Assembly: GCF_003334305.1 (NCBI RefSeq)
Contig: NZ_QOWS01000003.1
DNA from: Escherichia coli
Lineage (GTDB): Bacteria; Pseudomonadota; Gammaproteobacteria; Enterobacterales; Enterobacteriaceae
DNA length: 64,000 nt
Reading direction: 5' to 3' (one strand)
Shown: in pieces, positions 9,810 to 32,320 of the stretch
Numbering within the stretch: position 1 is the first letter of the stretch
Layout of the letters: each line of letters starts with the position of its first letter
The notes under the pieces: model-generated
What the model saw: only the letters and a program-made list of their open reading frames with translations
Told to the model about the DNA's origin: nothing
The model's database searches: none
Program-made: the position numbers and the translations under genes

Positions 9810-9908
9810 CCATTGGTCTGTCAGAAGAAACGTTCAGGAAGCAGACATGATTGCTCCCGGCATCCCGTCATTATCAGAGAGGATGCGGGAGGATGCCACT
9901 TTAATTAA

Positions 9909-10769
9909 CTAGTTATTAACATTAAAAAGATGGCTTACGCTTTCGGCTAACGTTGTCGTTGGGCGGCCAATCAATTTGCTAAGCGTTTTGCTGTCATCAA
10001 ACAGACCGCCTTTCGATGCGCCAACGTCAGAATCCGCCAGCATATCCGCCAGTCCGTCGGGCAGTCCGACGCTTTTCAGTGCCGCGGCGAAATCGGCTTC
10101 GCTCAGATTTTGATAGGTAACCTGTTTGCCGCTCTGTTTGGTCAGCTCTGCCGCTAACTGTGTCAACGTCCAGGCACTATCGCCCGCCAGTTCGTAAACC
10201 TTGCCTTCGTGACCGGCTTCGCTAATCACGCGTGCCGCAGCTGCCGCATAATCTGCCCGCGTTGCTGAGGCGATTTTGCCATCGCCCGCCGCACCGATAA
10301 ATACGCCGTGTTCCAGTGCTGCCGGGGCGCTGGCGAGGTAGTTTTCGCTGTACCAGCCGTTGCGCAGCAGGGTGTAAACGATGCCAGAATCAGCCAACAT
10401 TTTCTCCGTCTCGATGTGCTCATCGGCGAGGCCGAGCGGGGAGGTATCTGCATGTAGCAGGCTGGTATAAGCGATAAATTTCACACCAGCCGCCTTTGCG
10501 GCATTAATAACATTACGATGCTGCGGGGCACGTTGACCCACTTCGCTGGAAGAGATCAGCAGTAGTTTTTCCACTCCCTGAAGTGCAGATGTCAGTGCGG
10601 CTTCATCGCCGTAGTCAGCCTGACGCACGGTAATGCCTTGTGCTGCCAGAGCCTGGGCTTTTGCCGGATTACGAACGATAGCCACTATTTGGCTGACAGG
10701 AACCGTTTTCTTCAAGGATTCAATAACATAGTGACCAAGTTGGCCAGTGGCACCAGTAATAGCGATCAT
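9909..10769 (-). CDS. qorB: NAD(P)H:quinone oxidoreductase (NmrA-like)
   Basis: 286-aa protein with N-terminal GATGQLG Rossmann motif recognised as QorB/YtfG; divergent from ytfH. Confidence 0.9.
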   Translation of the reverse strand: MIAITGATGQLGHYVIESLKKTVPVSQIVAIVRNPAKAQALAAQGITVRQADYGDEAALTSALQGVEKLLLISSSEVGQRAPQHRNVINAAKAAGVKFIAYTSLLHADTSPLGLADEHIETEKMLADSGIVYTLLRNGWYSENYLASAPAALEHGVFIGAAGDGKIASATRADYAAAAARVISEAGHEGKVYELAGDSAWTLTQLAAELTKQSGKQVTYQNLSEADFAAALKSVGLPDGLADMLADSDVGASKGGLFDDSKTLSKLIGRPTTTLAESVSHLFNVNN

Positions 10770-10817
10770 GGGAAGTCTCCATCGTTTTGTCTTGTGTTTA
10801 AATACGCTAACACCTAA

Positions 10818-10834
10818 ACTTACTTTTAGTAAGT
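10818..10834. promoter_or_regulatory. inverted repeat ACTTAC-N5-GTAAGT in the qorB/ytfH divergent region; candidate YtfH (HxlR-family) operator
   Basis: 6-5-6 inverted repeat between divergent qorB and ytfH starts. Confidence 0.35.
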
Positions 10835-10857
10835 ACGCACAAAAAGGTAAGTATGAA

Positions 10858-11238
10858 ATGAGTCAGGTTAGCCTGTCGCAACAACTGAAAGAGGGTAATC
10901 TCTTTGCGGAACAGTGCCCGTCGCGCGAGGTGTTGAAACACGTCACCAGCCGTTGGGGGGTGTTGATTCTGGTGGCGCTACGCGAAGGTACTCATCGCTT
11001 TAGCGACCTGCGGCGCAAAATCGGCGGGGTGAGCGAAAAGATGCTTGCGCAGTCGTTACAGGCGTTAGAACAGGATGGTTTTCTTAACCGTATCGCGTAT
11101 CCGGTGGTGCCGCCGCATGTGGAATATAGCCTCACGCCGCTGGGCGAGCAGGTGAGCGAAAAGGTTGCTGCACTGGCGGACTGGATTGAGTTGAATTTGC
11201 CCGAGGTGTTGGCGGTGCGGGATGAACGTGCGGCATAA
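10858..11238 (+). CDS. ytfH: HxlR-family transcriptional regulator
   Basis: 126-aa protein from ATG 10858 with HxlR-type winged helix; ORF-track start 10747 overlaps qorB and is unlikely. Confidence 0.85.
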   Translation: MSQVSLSQQLKEGNLFAEQCPSREVLKHVTSRWGVLILVALREGTHRFSDLRRKIGGVSEKMLAQSLQALEQDGFLNRIAYPVVPPHVEYSLTPLGEQVSEKVAALADWIELNLPEVLAVRDERAA

Positions 11239-11239
11239 C

Positions 11240-11335
11240 TGCCGGATGCGCTGAGCTTATCTGGTCTACGGTGCATGGCTTGTAGGGCGGATAAGATGCG
11301 CCAGCATCGCATCCGCCAATAAATGCCGGATGCGG
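11240..11335. repeat. REP/BIME cluster between ytfH and cpdB
   Basis: Copies of the GCCGGATGCG / GTAGGGCGGATAAG palindromic-unit motifs. Confidence 0.8.
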
Positions 11336-11366
11336 TTGATGATTTATAGGCCGAAAAAGAAGTGTT

Positions 11367-13310
11367 TTACTTACTCAAATCCACCTGATAAATCGCAAAC
11401 CCGATATCATCGGTCGCGACTTTATTCATCGGATATTGCCCTTTCTCTTTAATAAACGCTGCGGCTTTATCTGACGGGGAAGTTTCGAAACGGATATCCA
11501 GTTTCTTATCGCCAGCAATCGGTGCTAAACGCCAGTTGTTATCTGCCGCCGGGTGAATTTCCCCCGCACGCTTCGACTCATCAGCAATCCACGCTGCCAG
11601 CACCGAGCGGTTCTCATCCGGTGAAGCAAAAGCGATATGGCTGTCGCCCGTACCGGCAAATTTGCCACCGTAAGCGCGATAGTTATTGGTGGCAACCAGG
11701 AACATAGCGTTCGGATCAATCGGCTTGCCATTAAAGGTCAGGTTCTTAATCCGCTCTGCATTGGCATTAATCATCTGGCACTCGCCGTCATAACGGGCGG
11801 GTTGGGTAACATCAATCTGATAATTCACACCATCAATAACATCAAAGTTATAAGTGCGGAAACCATCCCAGTTGATGAGTGACTGTGGTTTCGTGCTGTT
11901 AGGATCAATCTGGTTAAACTGTCCGGCGGAGCACTCCAGCCACTCTTTCACCTCTTTACCGCTGGCTTTCACCACAATCAGTGTATTGGGGTAGAGATAA
12001 AGATCGGCGGCATTACGGAAGGTCAACTGGCCTTTTTCCACCTCCACATAGCTTGCCGGGTCATTTTTGCGACCACCAACTTTAAACGGTGCGGCAGCTG
12101 AAAGCACCGGCAGTTTTGCCAGATCCGGATCGCCCTGAATGTAATGTTCGACATACGCTTTTTGCGCGTTGTTCACCACCTGCACGGTCGGATCGTCCTG
12201 CACCAGTGCCAGATAGCTATACATATTGTCGGCAGATTTACCGATTGGCTTGCTGACGAACTGGCGTGTGGCATCGTGATCGGCTTTGAGTGTTTCTACC
12301 AGCTTGCTGTCTTCCGCCGCGAGGGATTTTTTATTAGCGATGTCGTAAATCGGTCGTGCTTCCGCTTTCGCCTGCGTCACCTGCCATTTACCGCTGTCAT
12401 TACTGAGTTGTAAGTCGACCACACCAAGATGATCGCCCCACATGCCTGGCATTACCGCCGGAACACCATTCAGCGTGCCTTTCGCGATATCAGCTCCTTC
12501 GATATCAGCAAAATCTTTACTTGGGAAAACGGCGTGAGCATGGCCAAACATAATGGCGTCAACACCCGGAATTTCACTGAGATAATAAACTGAGTTTTCC
12601 GCCATCACTTTATACGGATCGGCAGACAGCCCGGAATGCGCCAGAACGACAACGAGATCGGCACCTTTCTCACGCATTTCAGGCACGTATTTGCGCACAG
12701 TTTCTGTTATATCGTTAACGGTGACTTTGCCGGACAAATTGGCTTTATCCCACCCCATAATCTGCGGCGGCACGACGCCAATATAGCCAATCTTTAACGT
12801 CTGTTTTTTTCCGTCTTTATCGACCACTTCGGTGTCTTTAATTAAATACGGTGTAAACATGGGCTGTTTGGTTTTTGCGTCAATGACGTTGGCATTTACA
12901 TAAGGGAATTTCGCTCCTGCCAACGCATTTTTCAGGTAATCCAGACCGTAGTTAAACTCGTGGTTGCCAAGCGTGCCGACGGTATAGTCCAGCGTATTTA
13001 ATGCCTTATAGACCGGGTGAATATCTCCGGCTTTTAATCCTTTCGCCGACATGTAATCGGCCAGCGGACTTCCCTGGATCAAGTCGCCGTTATCCACCAG
13101 CACGCTATTTTTGACTTCATTGCGGGCATCGTTAATCAGGCTTGCGGTGCGTACCAGTCCGAACTTTTCCGTGGCGGTGTCTTTGTAATAATCGAAATCC
13201 ATCATGTTGCTATGCAGATCAGTGGTTTCCATGATACGCAGATCGACCGTCGCTGCATTCACACTGGCGGCAATCAGCGTGGCCAGGAGCGTTGCGCTAA
13301 ACTTAATCAT
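11367..13310 (-). CDS. cpdB: periplasmic 2',3'-cyclic-nucleotide 2'-phosphodiesterase / 3'-nucleotidase
   Basis: Protein recognised as CpdB with signal peptide and metallophosphatase motifs; start may be 13310 (MIKF...) or 13319 (ORF track). Confidence 0.9.
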
Positions 13311-30946: not shown

Positions 30947-32320
30947 ATGCGCATTCATATTTTAGGAATTTGTGGCACATTTATGGGCGGTCTGGCGATG
31001 CTGGCGCGCCAGTTAGGCCATGAAGTAACGGGTTCGGACGCCAATGTGTATCCGCCGATGAGCACCTTACTTGAGAAGCAAGGCATTGAGCTGATTCAGG
31101 GTTACGATGCCAGCCAGCTCGATCCGCAGCCGGATCTGGTGATTATTGGCAACGCCATGACCCGTGGAAATCCGTGTGTGGAAGCGGTACTGGAAAAAAA
31201 CATCCCTTATATGTCAGGTCCACAGTGGCTGCACGATTTTGTGCTGCGCGACCGCTGGGTGCTGGCCGTTGCCGGTACACACGGCAAAACTACCACCGCG
31301 GGAATGGCGACCTGGATTCTGGAACAGTGCGGTTACAAACCGGGATTTGTGATCGGCGGTGTGCCGGGGAACTTTGAGGTTTCGGCGCGTCTGGGCGAAA
31401 GCGACTTCTTTGTTATCGAAGCGGATGAGTATGACTGCGCCTTCTTCGACAAACGCTCTAAATTTGTCCATTACTGCCCGCGTACGCTGATCCTCAACAA
31501 CCTTGAGTTCGATCACGCCGATATCTTTGACGACCTGAAAGCGATCCAGAAACAGTTCCACCATCTGGTGCGTATCGTTCCGGGGCAGGGCCGTATTATC
31601 TGGCCGGAAAATGACATCAACCTGAAACAGACCATGGCGATGGGCTGCTGGAGCGAGCAGGAGCTGGTGGGTGAGCAGGGTCACTGGCAGGCGAAAAAGC
31701 TGACCACTGACGCTTCTGAATGGGAAGTCTTGCTGGATGGCGAAAAAGTGGGCGAAGTGAAATGGTCGCTGGTGGGCGAACATAATATGCACAATGGCCT
31801 GATGGCGATTGCGGCGGCTCGCCATGTTGGTGTAGCGCCTGCAGATGCCGCTAACGCGCTGGGTTCGTTTATTAACGCTCGTCGCCGTCTGGAGTTGCGT
31901 GGTGAAGCGAATGGCGTGACGGTATATGACGATTTTGCCCATCACCCGACGGCAATTCTGGCAACGCTTGCGGCGCTGCGTGGCAAAGTTGGTGGTACGG
32001 CGCGCATTATTGCTGTGCTGGAGCCGCGCTCGAATACCATGAAAATGGGGATCTGCAAAGACGATCTGGCACCTTCATTAGGTCGTGCCGATGAAGTCTT
32101 CCTGCTGCAACCGGCGCATATTCCGTGGCAGGTGGCAGAAGTGGCAGAAGCCTGCGTTCAGCCTGCACACTGGAGTGGCGATGTGGATACGCTGGCAGAT
32201 ATGGTGGTGAAAACCGCTCAGCCTGGCGACCATATTCTGGTGATGAGCAACGGCGGTTTTGGTGGGATCCATCAGAAACTGCTGGATGGTCTGGCGAAGA
32301 AGGCGGAAGCTGCGCAGTAA
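30947..32320 (+). CDS. mpl: UDP-N-acetylmuramate:L-alanyl-gamma-D-glutamyl-meso-diaminopimelate ligase
   Basis: 457-aa Mur-ligase-family protein recognised as Mpl. Confidence 0.95.

What the first reader, a model, noticed from the sequence alone, without database searches (positions are those of the whole stretch)
10818..10834. Inverted repeat in the qorB/ytfH divergent promoter
ACTTAC-N5-GTAAGT lies between the quinone oxidoreductase gene qorB and the HxlR-family regulator gene ytfH. HxlR/MarR-type regulators commonly control a divergently transcribed oxidoreductase, so this may be the YtfH operator.
Basis: inference. Interest (0 to 1): 0.3.

Follow-up and report, generated by a model that had tools for sequence, protein, structure and literature searches.

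The report
Likely YtfH operator at qorB promoter
The short palindrome between the divergent E. coli genes qorB and ytfH is real, and it is one half of a very conserved 36-bp element that is most likely where the regulator YtfH binds to switch off the quinone reductase gene qorB; this is an ordinary local repressor-operator pair whose site has not yet been mapped experimentally.

Summary
The window is E. coli chromosome. ACTTAC-N5-GTAAGT is present at 10818-10834 and is really a perfect 7-N3-7 palindrome, ACTTACT-TTT-AGTAAGT. It lies in the 88-bp qorB(-)/ytfH(+) spacer.

On its own it is weak evidence: P is about 0.07 in the shuffled spacer, and the window holds 93 such palindromes. Conservation is what makes the case.

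- **Enterobacterales:** across 79 species, 10818-10854 is 97% identical per column. The rest of the spacer and qorB third codon positions are about 74%.
- **Structure of the block:** it is two tandem units. O1 is ACTTAC-TTTTA-GTAAGT. O2 is ACGCAC-AAAAAG-GTAAGT.
- **Distant relatives:** the same architecture sits upstream of YtfH homologues at 45-67% identity, where nothing else in the spacer is shared.
- **Reverse search:** 64 metagenome contigs carry a non-enteric variant of the motif. About 35 have a YtfH-like gene immediately downstream, usually divergent from a qorB-like or other NAD(P) oxidoreductase.
- **Expression:** a 2025 preprint reports that ytfH knockdown raises qorB about 24-fold.

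Best reading: a bipartite YtfH operator overlapping the inferred qorB -35 region. This is a new member of a known kind (QorR/YodB/QsrR-type). Binding, transcription start sites and the inducer are untested.

The parts
9909..10769 (-). qorB (ytfG), an NmrA-family NAD(P)H:quinone oxidoreductase. It is the presumed regulated gene.
   Evidence: ORF. RefSeq annotation of identical sequence. Divergent qorB-like gene present in 78/80 orthologous loci.
10858..11238 (+). ytfH, an HxlR/DUF24-family winged-helix regulator of 126 aa with a single cysteine, Cys20.
   Evidence: ORF frame. Pfam PF01638 on identical or near-identical proteins. PDB relatives are 1YYV (Salmonella YtfH), HxlR, HypR and YodB. Cys20 is kept in 109/127 aligned representatives.
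10818..10834 (.). H1 is ACTTAC (10818-10823), the spacer is TTTTA, and H2 is GTAAGT (10829-10834). In this genome it is a perfect 7-N3-7 palindrome.
   Evidence: H2 is invariant in 79/79 species. H1 is ACTAAC in 41, ACTTAC in 21 and GCTAAC in 15. H1-like hexamers also occur in distant loci.
10835..10853 (.). O2, a second imperfect unit directly abutting O1. H3 is ACGCAC (10835-10840), the spacer is AAAAAG, and H4 is GTAAGT(A) (10847-10853).
   Evidence: Direct repeat D1. H3 is ACGTAC in 50, ACGCAC in 23 and ACATAC in 5. H4 is GTAAGT in 72 and GTTAGT in 7. It is kept in L081, L082, L083, L087, L088 and L091 with 0-2 mismatches of 17, P<0.0005 each. Within E. coli only the two inner bases of H3 vary.
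10818..10854 (.). The whole conserved block, interpreted as a bipartite YtfH operator.
   Evidence: Mean column identity is 0.968 over 79 species, with 30 of 37 columns at 95% or more. The rest of the spacer is 0.74 and qorB third codon positions are 0.734.
10804..10812 (-). Inferred qorB extended -10 element. It reads TGTTAGCGT on the minus strand: TG at 10812-10811 and the hexamer TAGCGT at 10809-10804. The inferred transcription start is near 10797.
   Evidence: Positions 10804, 10808, 10809, 10811 and 10812 are invariant in 79/79 species. The TAnnnT signature sits at this fixed offset from H2 in 79/79 enterics and 13/33 distant loci, and no other offset is enriched. No start-site data were available, so this is inference. 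The simple consensus scan found no promoter.
10827..10832 (-). Inferred qorB -35 hexamer, TTACTA on the minus strand, 17 bp from the -10. It lies inside O1.
   Evidence: Geometry derived from the inferred -10, read directly from the sequence. Inference only.
10844..10847 (+). Probable ytfH Shine-Dalgarno sequence (AAGG), inside the O2 spacer.
   Evidence: Read from the sequence. Its distance is 5 nt to the ATG at 10853 and 10 nt to the ytfH ATG at 10858. Inference.

Best explanation
The palindrome is the left unit (O1) of a bipartite operator spanning 10818-10853. The product of the adjacent gene, YtfH, binds this operator, probably as two dimers.

Each unit pairs a strong half-site, GTAAGT(A), with a weaker inverted partner, ACnnAC, across an A/T-rich spacer. 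The spacer is 5 bp in O1 and 6 bp in O2.

Relative to the inferred qorB promoter, O1 covers about -21 to -37, which includes the -35 hexamer. O2 covers about -38 to -55. Bound YtfH would therefore keep RNA polymerase off the qorB promoter. O2 also lies over the ytfH leader and ribosome-binding site, and O1 lies just upstream of it, so YtfH very likely represses its own gene as well.

By analogy with one-Cys relatives (QorR, QsrR, YodB), oxidation or alkylation of Cys20 by quinones or other electrophiles would release YtfH and induce the quinone reductase.

Status of each step:
- **Shown here:** the sequence anatomy, its conservation, and its specific association with ytfH-like genes.
- **Shown by others:** ytfH knockdown raises qorB.
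- **Inferred:** physical binding, promoter positions, autoregulation and the inducing signal.
For: 1. **Conservation far above background.** The block is 96.8% identical per column across 79 Enterobacterales species, including Proteus and Morganella. The rest of the spacer is 74% and qorB third codon positions are 73%.
2. **Pattern of variation fits a protein site.**
   - Changes fall on the inner bases of the left half-sites (10821, 10837/10838) and on one base of H4 (10849). This holds between species and within E. coli.
   - The spacer stays A/T but changes sequence in Proteus and Morganella.
3. **The element travels with the regulator.**
   - YtfH homologues at 53-67% identity keep GTAAGTAC-nn-AC-N6-GTAAGTA with 0-2 mismatches of 17, in otherwise unrelated spacers (P<0.0005 each). 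A 45% homologue next to a Zn-ADH gene keeps it with 3 mismatches.
   - In L081 the O2 spacer is a T-tract and the start codon lies 14 nt further on. H4 is therefore not conserved merely as a ribosome-binding site or start codon.
4. **Unbiased reverse test.** A non-enteric variant of the motif had 64 exact metagenome hits.
   - 30 have a YtfH-like gene (39-77% identity) starting within 120 bp downstream in the right orientation. The count is about 35 when cases cut by contig ends are included.
   - 26 have a divergent qorB-like gene. Others have F420-reductase-like or SDR oxidoreductases.
   - The remaining hits are mostly on low-GC contigs, and several lie inside very long ORFs.
5. **Natural experiment.** In a Lelliottia genome that has lost qorB, O1 survives as a perfect palindrome through a change in both arms (ACTAAC-TTTTA-GTTAGT), while O2 has decayed.
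6. **Family fit.** YtfH is an HxlR/DUF24 protein. Relatives bind 15-16 bp palindromes: YodB TACT-N7-AGTA (PMC8063818) and HypR 7-2-7 (PMC3351151). The sensing cysteine is conserved.
7. **Expression.** CRISPRi of ytfH raises qorB with log2 fold change 4.6, and qorB was differentially expressed only in that perturbation (bioRxiv 10.64898/2025.12.20.695731, supplementary note 6).
8. **Promoter in the spacer.** An RpoD-holoenzyme SELEX peak maps to the qorB/ytfH spacer (PMC3946193).
Against: - No binding experiment exists. The preprint states there were no prior binding data.
- The knockdown effect was seen in only about 4% of cells, and dCas9 sat next to the shared control region.
- The palindrome alone is not statistically remarkable.
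- O1 and O2 have different spacers (5 and 6 bp). Their centres are 17.5 bp apart, which is not an integral number of helical turns, so a simple two-identical-dimers model is not guaranteed.
- The right half-sites are far more constrained than the left ones. This suggests that part of the conservation comes from overlapping promoter or translation signals.
- The promoter positions are inferred. The simple sigma-70 scan found nothing, and I could not place the ytfH promoter.
- The metagenome search pattern fixed H2, part of H3 and H4, so conservation of those bases among those particular hits is circular. Only their genomic context and H1 are independent.
Confidence: 0.8

Rival explanations
1. 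The block is conserved mainly because it holds the core signals of two back-to-back promoters plus the ytfH ribosome-binding site and start codon. On this view the palindrome is incidental and is not a regulator-binding site.
For: The inferred qorB -35 (10827-10832) lies in O1. The ytfH Shine-Dalgarno sequence (10844-10847) and the upstream ATG (10853) lie in O2. The right half-sites are more constrained than the left ones. RNA polymerase holoenzyme alone selects this spacer in SELEX.
Against: - Promoter and ribosome-binding signals do not normally need 30 of 37 near-invariant columns.
- The same GTAAGTA ... GTAAGTA arrangement persists in 52-75% GC bacteria with different spacers and start-codon distances from 0 to over 40 bp.
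- In L081 the Shine-Dalgarno-like A-tract is replaced by a T-tract while H4 is kept.
- The motif tracks the presence of a ytfH-like gene whatever the partner gene is.
Confidence: 0.08
2. The repeats act at the RNA level. In the ytfH leader, ACUUACUUUU (10818-10827) could pair with AAAGGUAAGU (10843-10852) and mask the ribosome-binding site, like a fourU-type thermometer. Alternatively, the 7-bp hairpin could form.
For: The two stretches can form 10 pairs including one G-U (I2). The minimum-free-energy fold uses exactly this pairing. One paper lists ytfH as heat-activated in array data (PMC9308461).
Against: - The fold is no better than shuffled sequence: z = -0.40, with 65 of 200 shuffles folding as well.
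- There is no Rfam match of note.
- In 56/79 species the left arm carries A at 10821, giving an A-A mismatch with both possible partners. The variable positions in H1 and H4 change independently rather than in a compensatory way.
- In Proteus and Morganella the U-tract becomes UAAA or UUAAA, and in L081 the A-tract becomes a U-tract. Both changes destroy the extension that would mask the ribosome-binding site.
- It is unknown whether the ytfH transcript even includes 10818.
Confidence: 0.04
3. The element is a real protein-binding site, but the mode differs from the best explanation. Either a different conserved factor binds it, or YtfH stays bound and switches to an activator when modified, as the relatives HypR and HxlR do.
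For: HxlR and HypR are activators that bind upstream of -35 (PMC3351151). The O2 centre at about -46 relative to the inferred qorB start would suit an activator. The 17.5-bp offset between the two units is unusual for a plain roadblock.
Against: - Knockdown of ytfH raises qorB about 24-fold, so the net effect of YtfH is negative.
- The motif co-occurs with ytfH-like genes in dozens of unrelated lineages, which points to the adjacent regulator as the binder.
- O1 overlaps the inferred -35 and promoter spacer, which is a repressor position.
Confidence: 0.06
4. The palindrome is a chance feature of an A/T-rich spacer.
For: About 7% of shuffled spacers contain such a repeat, and the window holds 93 of them.
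Against: It is conserved across 79 species and in distant homologues, and it shows a specific motif-to-gene association.
Confidence: 0.02

Closest known systems
QorR-qor2 of Corynebacterium glutamicum (Ehira et al. 2009, J Biol Chem 284:16736; I could not read the paper, so details beyond searches are from memory)
   Same: A DUF24/HxlR-family repressor encoded next to a quinone oxidoreductase gene that it controls. It senses oxidants such as diamide and H2O2 (PMC3351151). From memory, it works through a single N-terminal cysteine and the two genes are divergent. Some databases already name YtfH orthologues 'redox-sensing transcriptional regulator QorR'.
   Different: It comes from a different phylum. 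I could not compare the QorR operator sequence. For YtfH no binding, no inducer and no role for Cys20 has been demonstrated. The bipartite GTAAGTA operator described here is specific to the YtfH subfamily as far as I tested.
YodB (Bacillus subtilis) and QsrR (Staphylococcus aureus), quinone-sensing repressors
   Same: They share the HxlR/DUF24 fold: YodB matches YtfH at E 9e-10. The N-terminal sensing cysteine is conserved. They repress quinone and azo reductases and bind a palindrome of about 15 bp spanning two adjacent major grooves, TACT-N7-AGTA for YodB. The O1 hexamers are 11 bp apart centre to centre, the same as YodB's tetramers.
   Different: - They control multi-gene regulons at unlinked promoters. 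In the knockdown screen YtfH affected only the adjacent qorB.
- The half-site sequence differs: GTAAGT against AGTA.
- The YtfH element has two abutting units in the same orientation rather than one symmetric box.
HypR (B. subtilis YybR)
   Same: Same family (E 4e-14). It binds a 7-2-7 inverted repeat that is present both at its target and in its own leader, which parallels the autoregulation inferred here.
   Different: HypR is an activator of hypO and binds at -53 to -95. YtfH behaves as a repressor, and its site overlaps the inferred core promoter.
HxlR (B. subtilis), the family's founding member
   Same: It is the closest non-orthologous solved relative with a characterised function (E 2e-17). 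From memory (Yurimoto et al. 2005), it binds two tandem sites upstream of hxlAB, a precedent for a two-unit operator.
   Different: It is a formaldehyde-responsive activator. Its sensing involves a Cys-Lys pair (from memory), and YtfH lacks the lysine two residues after the cysteine: YtfH has C-P-S.

Membership tests
HxlR / DUF24 (MarR-like) transcriptional regulators (for YtfH, the presumed binder) | HxlR-type winged helix-turn-helix domain (Pfam PF01638) | tested here: met
   PF01638 is precomputed on identical and near-identical proteins and on all distant homologues fetched. PDB relatives are 1YYV, HxlR, HypR and YodB.
HxlR / DUF24 (MarR-like) transcriptional regulators (for YtfH, the presumed binder) | Conserved N-terminal reactive cysteine at the start of helix alpha-1 | tested here: met
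   Cys20 in the motif C-P-S-R is the only cysteine in YtfH. It is kept in 109/127 aligned representatives and aligns with the HxlR and HypR N-terminal Cys region.
HxlR / DUF24 (MarR-like) transcriptional regulators (for YtfH, the presumed binder) | Thiol-based response to oxidants or electrophiles that changes DNA binding | not testable with these tools
   This needs EMSA with and without quinone or diamide, and a C20S mutant.
Operator of a local DUF24-type repressor (for the DNA element) | (Pseudo)palindrome of about 15-20 bp with half-sites in adjacent major grooves | tested here: met
   O1 is 6-N5-6 (7-N3-7), perfect in this genome. It has the same 11-bp centre-to-centre spacing as the YodB box. 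O2 is 6-N6-6 with 4 of 6 matches.
Operator of a local DUF24-type repressor (for the DNA element) | Conserved in orthologous control regions while neighbouring non-coding DNA diverges | tested here: met
   (79 species). (distant homologues).
Operator of a local DUF24-type repressor (for the DNA element) | Co-occurs specifically with the regulator gene | tested here: met
   In the motif-first metagenome search, 30 to about 35 of 64 exact hits lie immediately upstream of a YtfH-like gene. The remaining hits are mostly on low-GC contigs, and several lie inside very long ORFs.
Operator of a local DUF24-type repressor (for the DNA element) | Overlaps the core promoter of the regulated gene | tested here: inconclusive
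   An extended -10 signature at 10804-10812 is invariant and sits at a fixed offset from the operator. That places O1 over the -35. However, no start-site data were available and the consensus scan found no promoter.
Operator of a local DUF24-type repressor (for the DNA element) | Loss of the regulator derepresses the adjacent gene | not testable with these tools
   Not tested here. It is reported by others: CRISPRi of ytfH raises qorB with log2 fold change 4.6, in about 4% of cells.
Operator of a local DUF24-type repressor (for the DNA element) | Direct, sequence-specific binding by the regulator | not testable with these tools
   No binding data exist, according to the preprint. None was found in literature searches.

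The most novel reading that the evidence does not exclude
YtfH-type regulators may not use a single symmetric box like YodB, QsrR or HypR. Instead they may use a bipartite operator of about 36 bp made of two abutting units in the same orientation. Each unit has an invariant GTAAGTA half-site and a degenerate ACnnAC partner. The spacers are 5 and 6 bp and the unit centres are 17.5-18 bp apart. This architecture is kept from Enterobacterales to high-GC bacteria, down to about 40% protein identity. It would imply cooperative binding of two dimers on different faces of the DNA with asymmetric half-site use. It would also define a widespread, previously undescribed regulon type pairing this regulator with varied NAD(P)-dependent oxidoreductases.
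Probability: 0.4. Interest if true: 0.4.

Novelty: new member of a known kind. Interest (0 to 1): 0.3.

Why it matters
YtfH is one of the remaining E. coli K-12 transcription factors with no known binding site. qorB is a quinone reductase that the 2025 preprint describes as implicated in quinone toxicity and antibiotic resistance.

- **A testable site.** This work gives a precise operator, with half-sites at 10818-23, 10829-34, 10835-40 and 10847-52, and an inferred promoter geometry. These turn a knockdown observation into a mechanism that can be tested directly.
- **A search tool.** The motif is shared by homologues across Proteobacteria and high-GC lineages. It can be used to predict targets of this HxlR subfamily in many genomes.
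- **No new principle.** The logic is the familiar local redox repressor paired with a detoxifying oxidoreductase.

Tried and rejected
- **Simple sigma-70 and terminator scan of 10650-10950.** It found no promoter and one weak terminator-like site inside qorB. It was not informative.
- **Rfam scan.** The only match was a sub-threshold Trp_leader hit at E 0.36. Rejected.
- **RNA folding of 10810-10875.** Not better than shuffles. The RNA-switch idea was rejected, also because of the variation pattern.
- **The promoter printed for qorB in the RpoD SELEX paper (TCGACA-15-TACATT).** It is not present near this spacer; the nearest 1-mismatch match is at 31446. I used only that paper's peak location.
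- **A third inverted repeat, CTTTTAGTA-N6-TACAAAAAG, centred at 10834.5.** Rejected because the A-tract becomes a T-tract in L081.
- **A SoxS/MarA box or CRP site in the spacer.** Inspection by eye found no acceptable match, so I did not pursue it.
- **The search for homologous proteins.** It returned only close relatives and did not help to reach distant loci. The search of protein representatives did.
- **Distant homologues without the motif.** Three (L085, L089, L093) lack both the motif and an adjacent oxidoreductase. L090 has a reversed variant, TTTTGGTAAG twice, 18 bp apart.
- **Genome-wide search for further sites in E. coli.** Not possible with the tools. Within the 64-kb window there is no other site with 3 or fewer mismatches.
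- **The QorR paper (PMC2719308).** It is not held.

Full report
**What is in the sequence**

The window is E. coli chromosome. Positions 9900-11400 are 100% identical to many complete E. coli genomes, where the genes are annotated qorB, ytfH and cpdB (annotation table).
- qorB runs 10769 to 9909 on the minus strand. ytfH runs 10858 to 11238 on the plus strand. I first misplaced the ytfH ATG by one base; this was corrected through.
- The spacer is 10770-10857, 88 bp.
- The reported ACTTAC-N5-GTAAGT is at 10818-10834. It is in fact a perfect 7-N3-7 palindrome, ACTTACT-TTT-AGTAAGT.
- A further copy of GTAAGTA lies at 10847-10853, 18 bp downstream of the right arm.

**Is it more than chance?**

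Taken alone, only marginally. A perfect 7-bp inverted repeat with a 0-10 bp spacer appears in 6.9% of shuffles of the spacer, and there are 93 in the window. The case rests on comparative evidence.

**Conservation among orthologues**

One scan of species-representative genomes returned 80 Enterobacterales loci with a YtfH orthologue at 77-98% identity. Of these, 78 have qorB divergent.
- In the 79-sequence alignment, positions 10818-10854 have a mean column identity of 0.968, with 30 of 37 columns at 95% or more. The rest of the spacer is 0.74 and qorB third codon positions are 0.734.
- The block reads as four hexamers:
  - H1 (10818-23): ACTAAC 41, ACTTAC 21, GCTAAC 15.
  - Spacer TTTTA: 74/79.
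  - H2 (10829-34): GTAAGT 79/79.
  - H3 (10835-40): ACGTAC 50, ACGCAC 23, ACATAC 5.
  - Spacer AAAAAG: 76/79.
  - H4 (10847-52): GTAAGT 72, GTTAGT 7.
- So there are two abutting imperfect palindromes. O2 is H3-N6-H4.
- The perfect palindrome is a feature of the Escherichia/Citrobacter/Salmonella group. Most genera carry one mismatch.
- Within E. coli, the polymorphisms I sampled inside the block fall only on the two inner bases of H3.

**Distant relatives**

I took representatives at 45-67% identity and looked up their contigs.
- The same architecture appears in otherwise unalignable spacers:
  - L081: GCTTAC-TTTTG-GTAAGT-ACGCAC-TTTTTG-GTAAGT.
  - L082: GCTTAC-TTTTG-GTAAGT-ACGCAC-CTGAAG-GTTAGT.
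  - L083/L084: GCTGAC-AAAAG-GTAAGT-ACCTAC-AAAAAG-GTAAGT.
  - L087, L088 and L091 are similar.
- Each has 0-2 mismatches to GTAAGTAC-NN-AC-N6-GTAAGTA, against about 7.7 for the best match in shuffled spacers.
- L092 (45% identity, next to a Zn-ADH gene) has 3 mismatches, counted by hand.
- The partner gene is NmrA/qorB-like in L081, L083, L087 and L088. It is SnoaL-like in L091 and Zn-ADH in L092.
- In L081 the O2 spacer is a T-tract and the start codon is 14 nt beyond H4. H4 is therefore not kept merely as a ribosome-binding site or start codon.
- Three homologues without an adjacent oxidoreductase (L085, L089, L093) lack the motif.

**Reverse test**

I searched metagenome contigs for the exact pattern GTAAGTACCNACNNNNNNGTAAGTA. 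This variant excludes enteric sequences, which carry G or A at the ninth position. There were 64 hits.
- 30 have a YtfH-like gene (39-77% identity) beginning within 120 bp downstream in the correct orientation. About five more are cut by contig ends or fall just outside my criteria.
- 26 have a divergent qorB-like gene. Others have F420-reductase-like or SDR oxidoreductases.
- The positives are 52-75% GC contigs in which the A/T-rich element stands out. At the H1 position they again show ACTTAC, GCTTAC, ACGCAC and GCTAAC.
- The negatives are mostly low-GC contigs. Several are repeated families inside ORFs of 500-2000 codons, so they are unrelated or chance matches.
- The bases fixed by the pattern are not independent evidence in this set. 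The genomic context and H1 are.

**A natural experiment**

In two Lelliottia-like genomes qorB has been replaced by thiol-disulfide genes that read towards ytfH.
- One genome keeps the whole block.
- In the other, O1 persists as a perfect palindrome through matching changes in both arms (ACTAAC-TTTTA-GTTAGT), while O2 has decayed.
- This is a single case, but it fits O1 being a self-sufficient dimer site used for autoregulation.

**Promoter geometry (inferred)**

- Outside the block, the invariant spacer positions are 10804, 10808, 10809, 10811 and 10812. On the qorB strand these spell TGnTAnnnT, an extended -10 element.
- The TAnnnT signature sits at this same offset from H2 in 79/79 enterics and 13/33 distinct metagenome loci, with no other offset enriched.
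- This implies a qorB start near 10797 and a -35 of TTACTA at 10832-10827. O1 then lies at -21 to -37 and O2 at -38 to -55.
- O1 therefore overlaps the -35 and promoter spacer, which is a repressor position.
- I could not place the ytfH promoter with confidence. The block fills the 40 bp next to ytfH, and O2 contains the probable Shine-Dalgarno sequence, so autoregulation is geometrically likely.
- The consensus scan found no promoter, and I had no start-site data. RNA polymerase holoenzyme SELEX does place a constitutive promoter in this spacer.

**The regulator**

- YtfH carries the HxlR domain. Its solved relatives are Salmonella YtfH (1YYV), HxlR, HypR and YodB.
- NCBIfam gives only sub-threshold similarity to the Campylobacter redox regulators RrpA and RrpB.
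- Its single cysteine, Cys20, lies in a C-P-S-R motif kept in 109/127 representatives. It corresponds to the sensing cysteine of the family.

**Literature**

- No paper in the searchable library defines a YtfH site. RefSeq annotates nothing in the spacer.
- A December 2025 preprint reports that CRISPRi of ytfH raised qorB by log2 4.6. qorB was differentially expressed only in that perturbation, and the effect was detected in about 4% of cells. The authors suggest divergent regulation and state that no binding data existed.
- Family operators for comparison are YodB TACT-N7-AGTA and the HypR 7-2-7 repeat, found both at its target and in its own leader.

**Rivals**

- **RNA switch** (left arm pairing with the Shine-Dalgarno region). 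Disfavoured: the fold is no better than shuffles, there is no Rfam match, the variable positions do not covary, and the pairing extension is lost in Proteus, Morganella and L081.
- **Promoter and ribosome-binding signals only.** This cannot explain the motif's persistence with variable start-codon distances, or its association with ytfH-like genes. Overlapping signals probably do add constraint on H2 and H4.
- **Activator mode or a different binder.** Not excluded, but disfavoured by the knockdown result.

**Verdict**

The palindrome is half of a bipartite operator whose most conserved parts are two same-orientation GTAAGTA half-sites.

This is a new, as yet unmapped member of the well-known class of DUF24/HxlR local redox repressors paired with a detoxifying oxidoreductase. 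It is useful for annotating an uncharacterised E. coli regulator, but it is not surprising.

Noticed in passing
window 10853-10861: In E. coli the ATG inside or just after H4 (10853) opens a two-codon mini-ORF, ATG AAA TGA. Its stop overlaps the annotated ytfH ATG at 10858 (ATGAAATGA). In most other Enterobacterales the upstream ATG is in frame and appears to be the real start: 128-aa proteins in Citrobacter, and MKT... N-termini elsewhere. E. coli therefore seems to carry a 1-nt frame difference that gives it a different N-terminus and possibly coupled re-initiation.
   Followed up: partly
L042 1-2000 and L053 1-2000: In two Lelliottia-like genomes qorB is absent. Thiol-disulfide (DsbD/ScsB-, ScsC-, ScsD-like) genes lie upstream of ytfH in the same orientation. 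One genome keeps the full block. The other keeps only O1, as a perfect palindrome with changes in both arms.
   Followed up: partly
L090 about 1420-1460: A 49%-identity HxlR homologue has CTTACCAAAA twice, 18 bp apart, upstream of its gene. This is the reverse complement of TTTTGGTAAG, so it is the same kind of element but in the opposite orientation relative to the regulator gene.
   Followed up: no
L103, L110, L111, L119, L120, L138, L144; L096, L114, L148, L101, L113, L115; L117, L137, L153: Among the metagenome hits without a ytfH-like gene there are three recurring sequence families on low-GC contigs. Several lie inside ORFs of 300-2000 codons. They look like unrelated coding sequence that happens to contain the pattern. 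GTAAGT is also the eukaryotic splice-donor consensus.
   Followed up: partly
window 10837-10838: This window has ACGCAC in H3. K-12-like and most sampled E. coli strains have ACGTAC, and some have ACATAC. These two positions were the only polymorphic ones inside the block in the five E. coli sequences compared.
   Followed up: partly
window 10821: The variable base of the left arm trades off two features. T (Escherichia, Citrobacter, Salmonella) makes the palindrome perfect. A (most other genera) creates TAACTT at 10820-10825, a better -10-like hexamer on the ytfH strand, 17 bp after a TTG at 10797-10799. This may be a hint to where the ytfH promoter lies.
   Followed up: no
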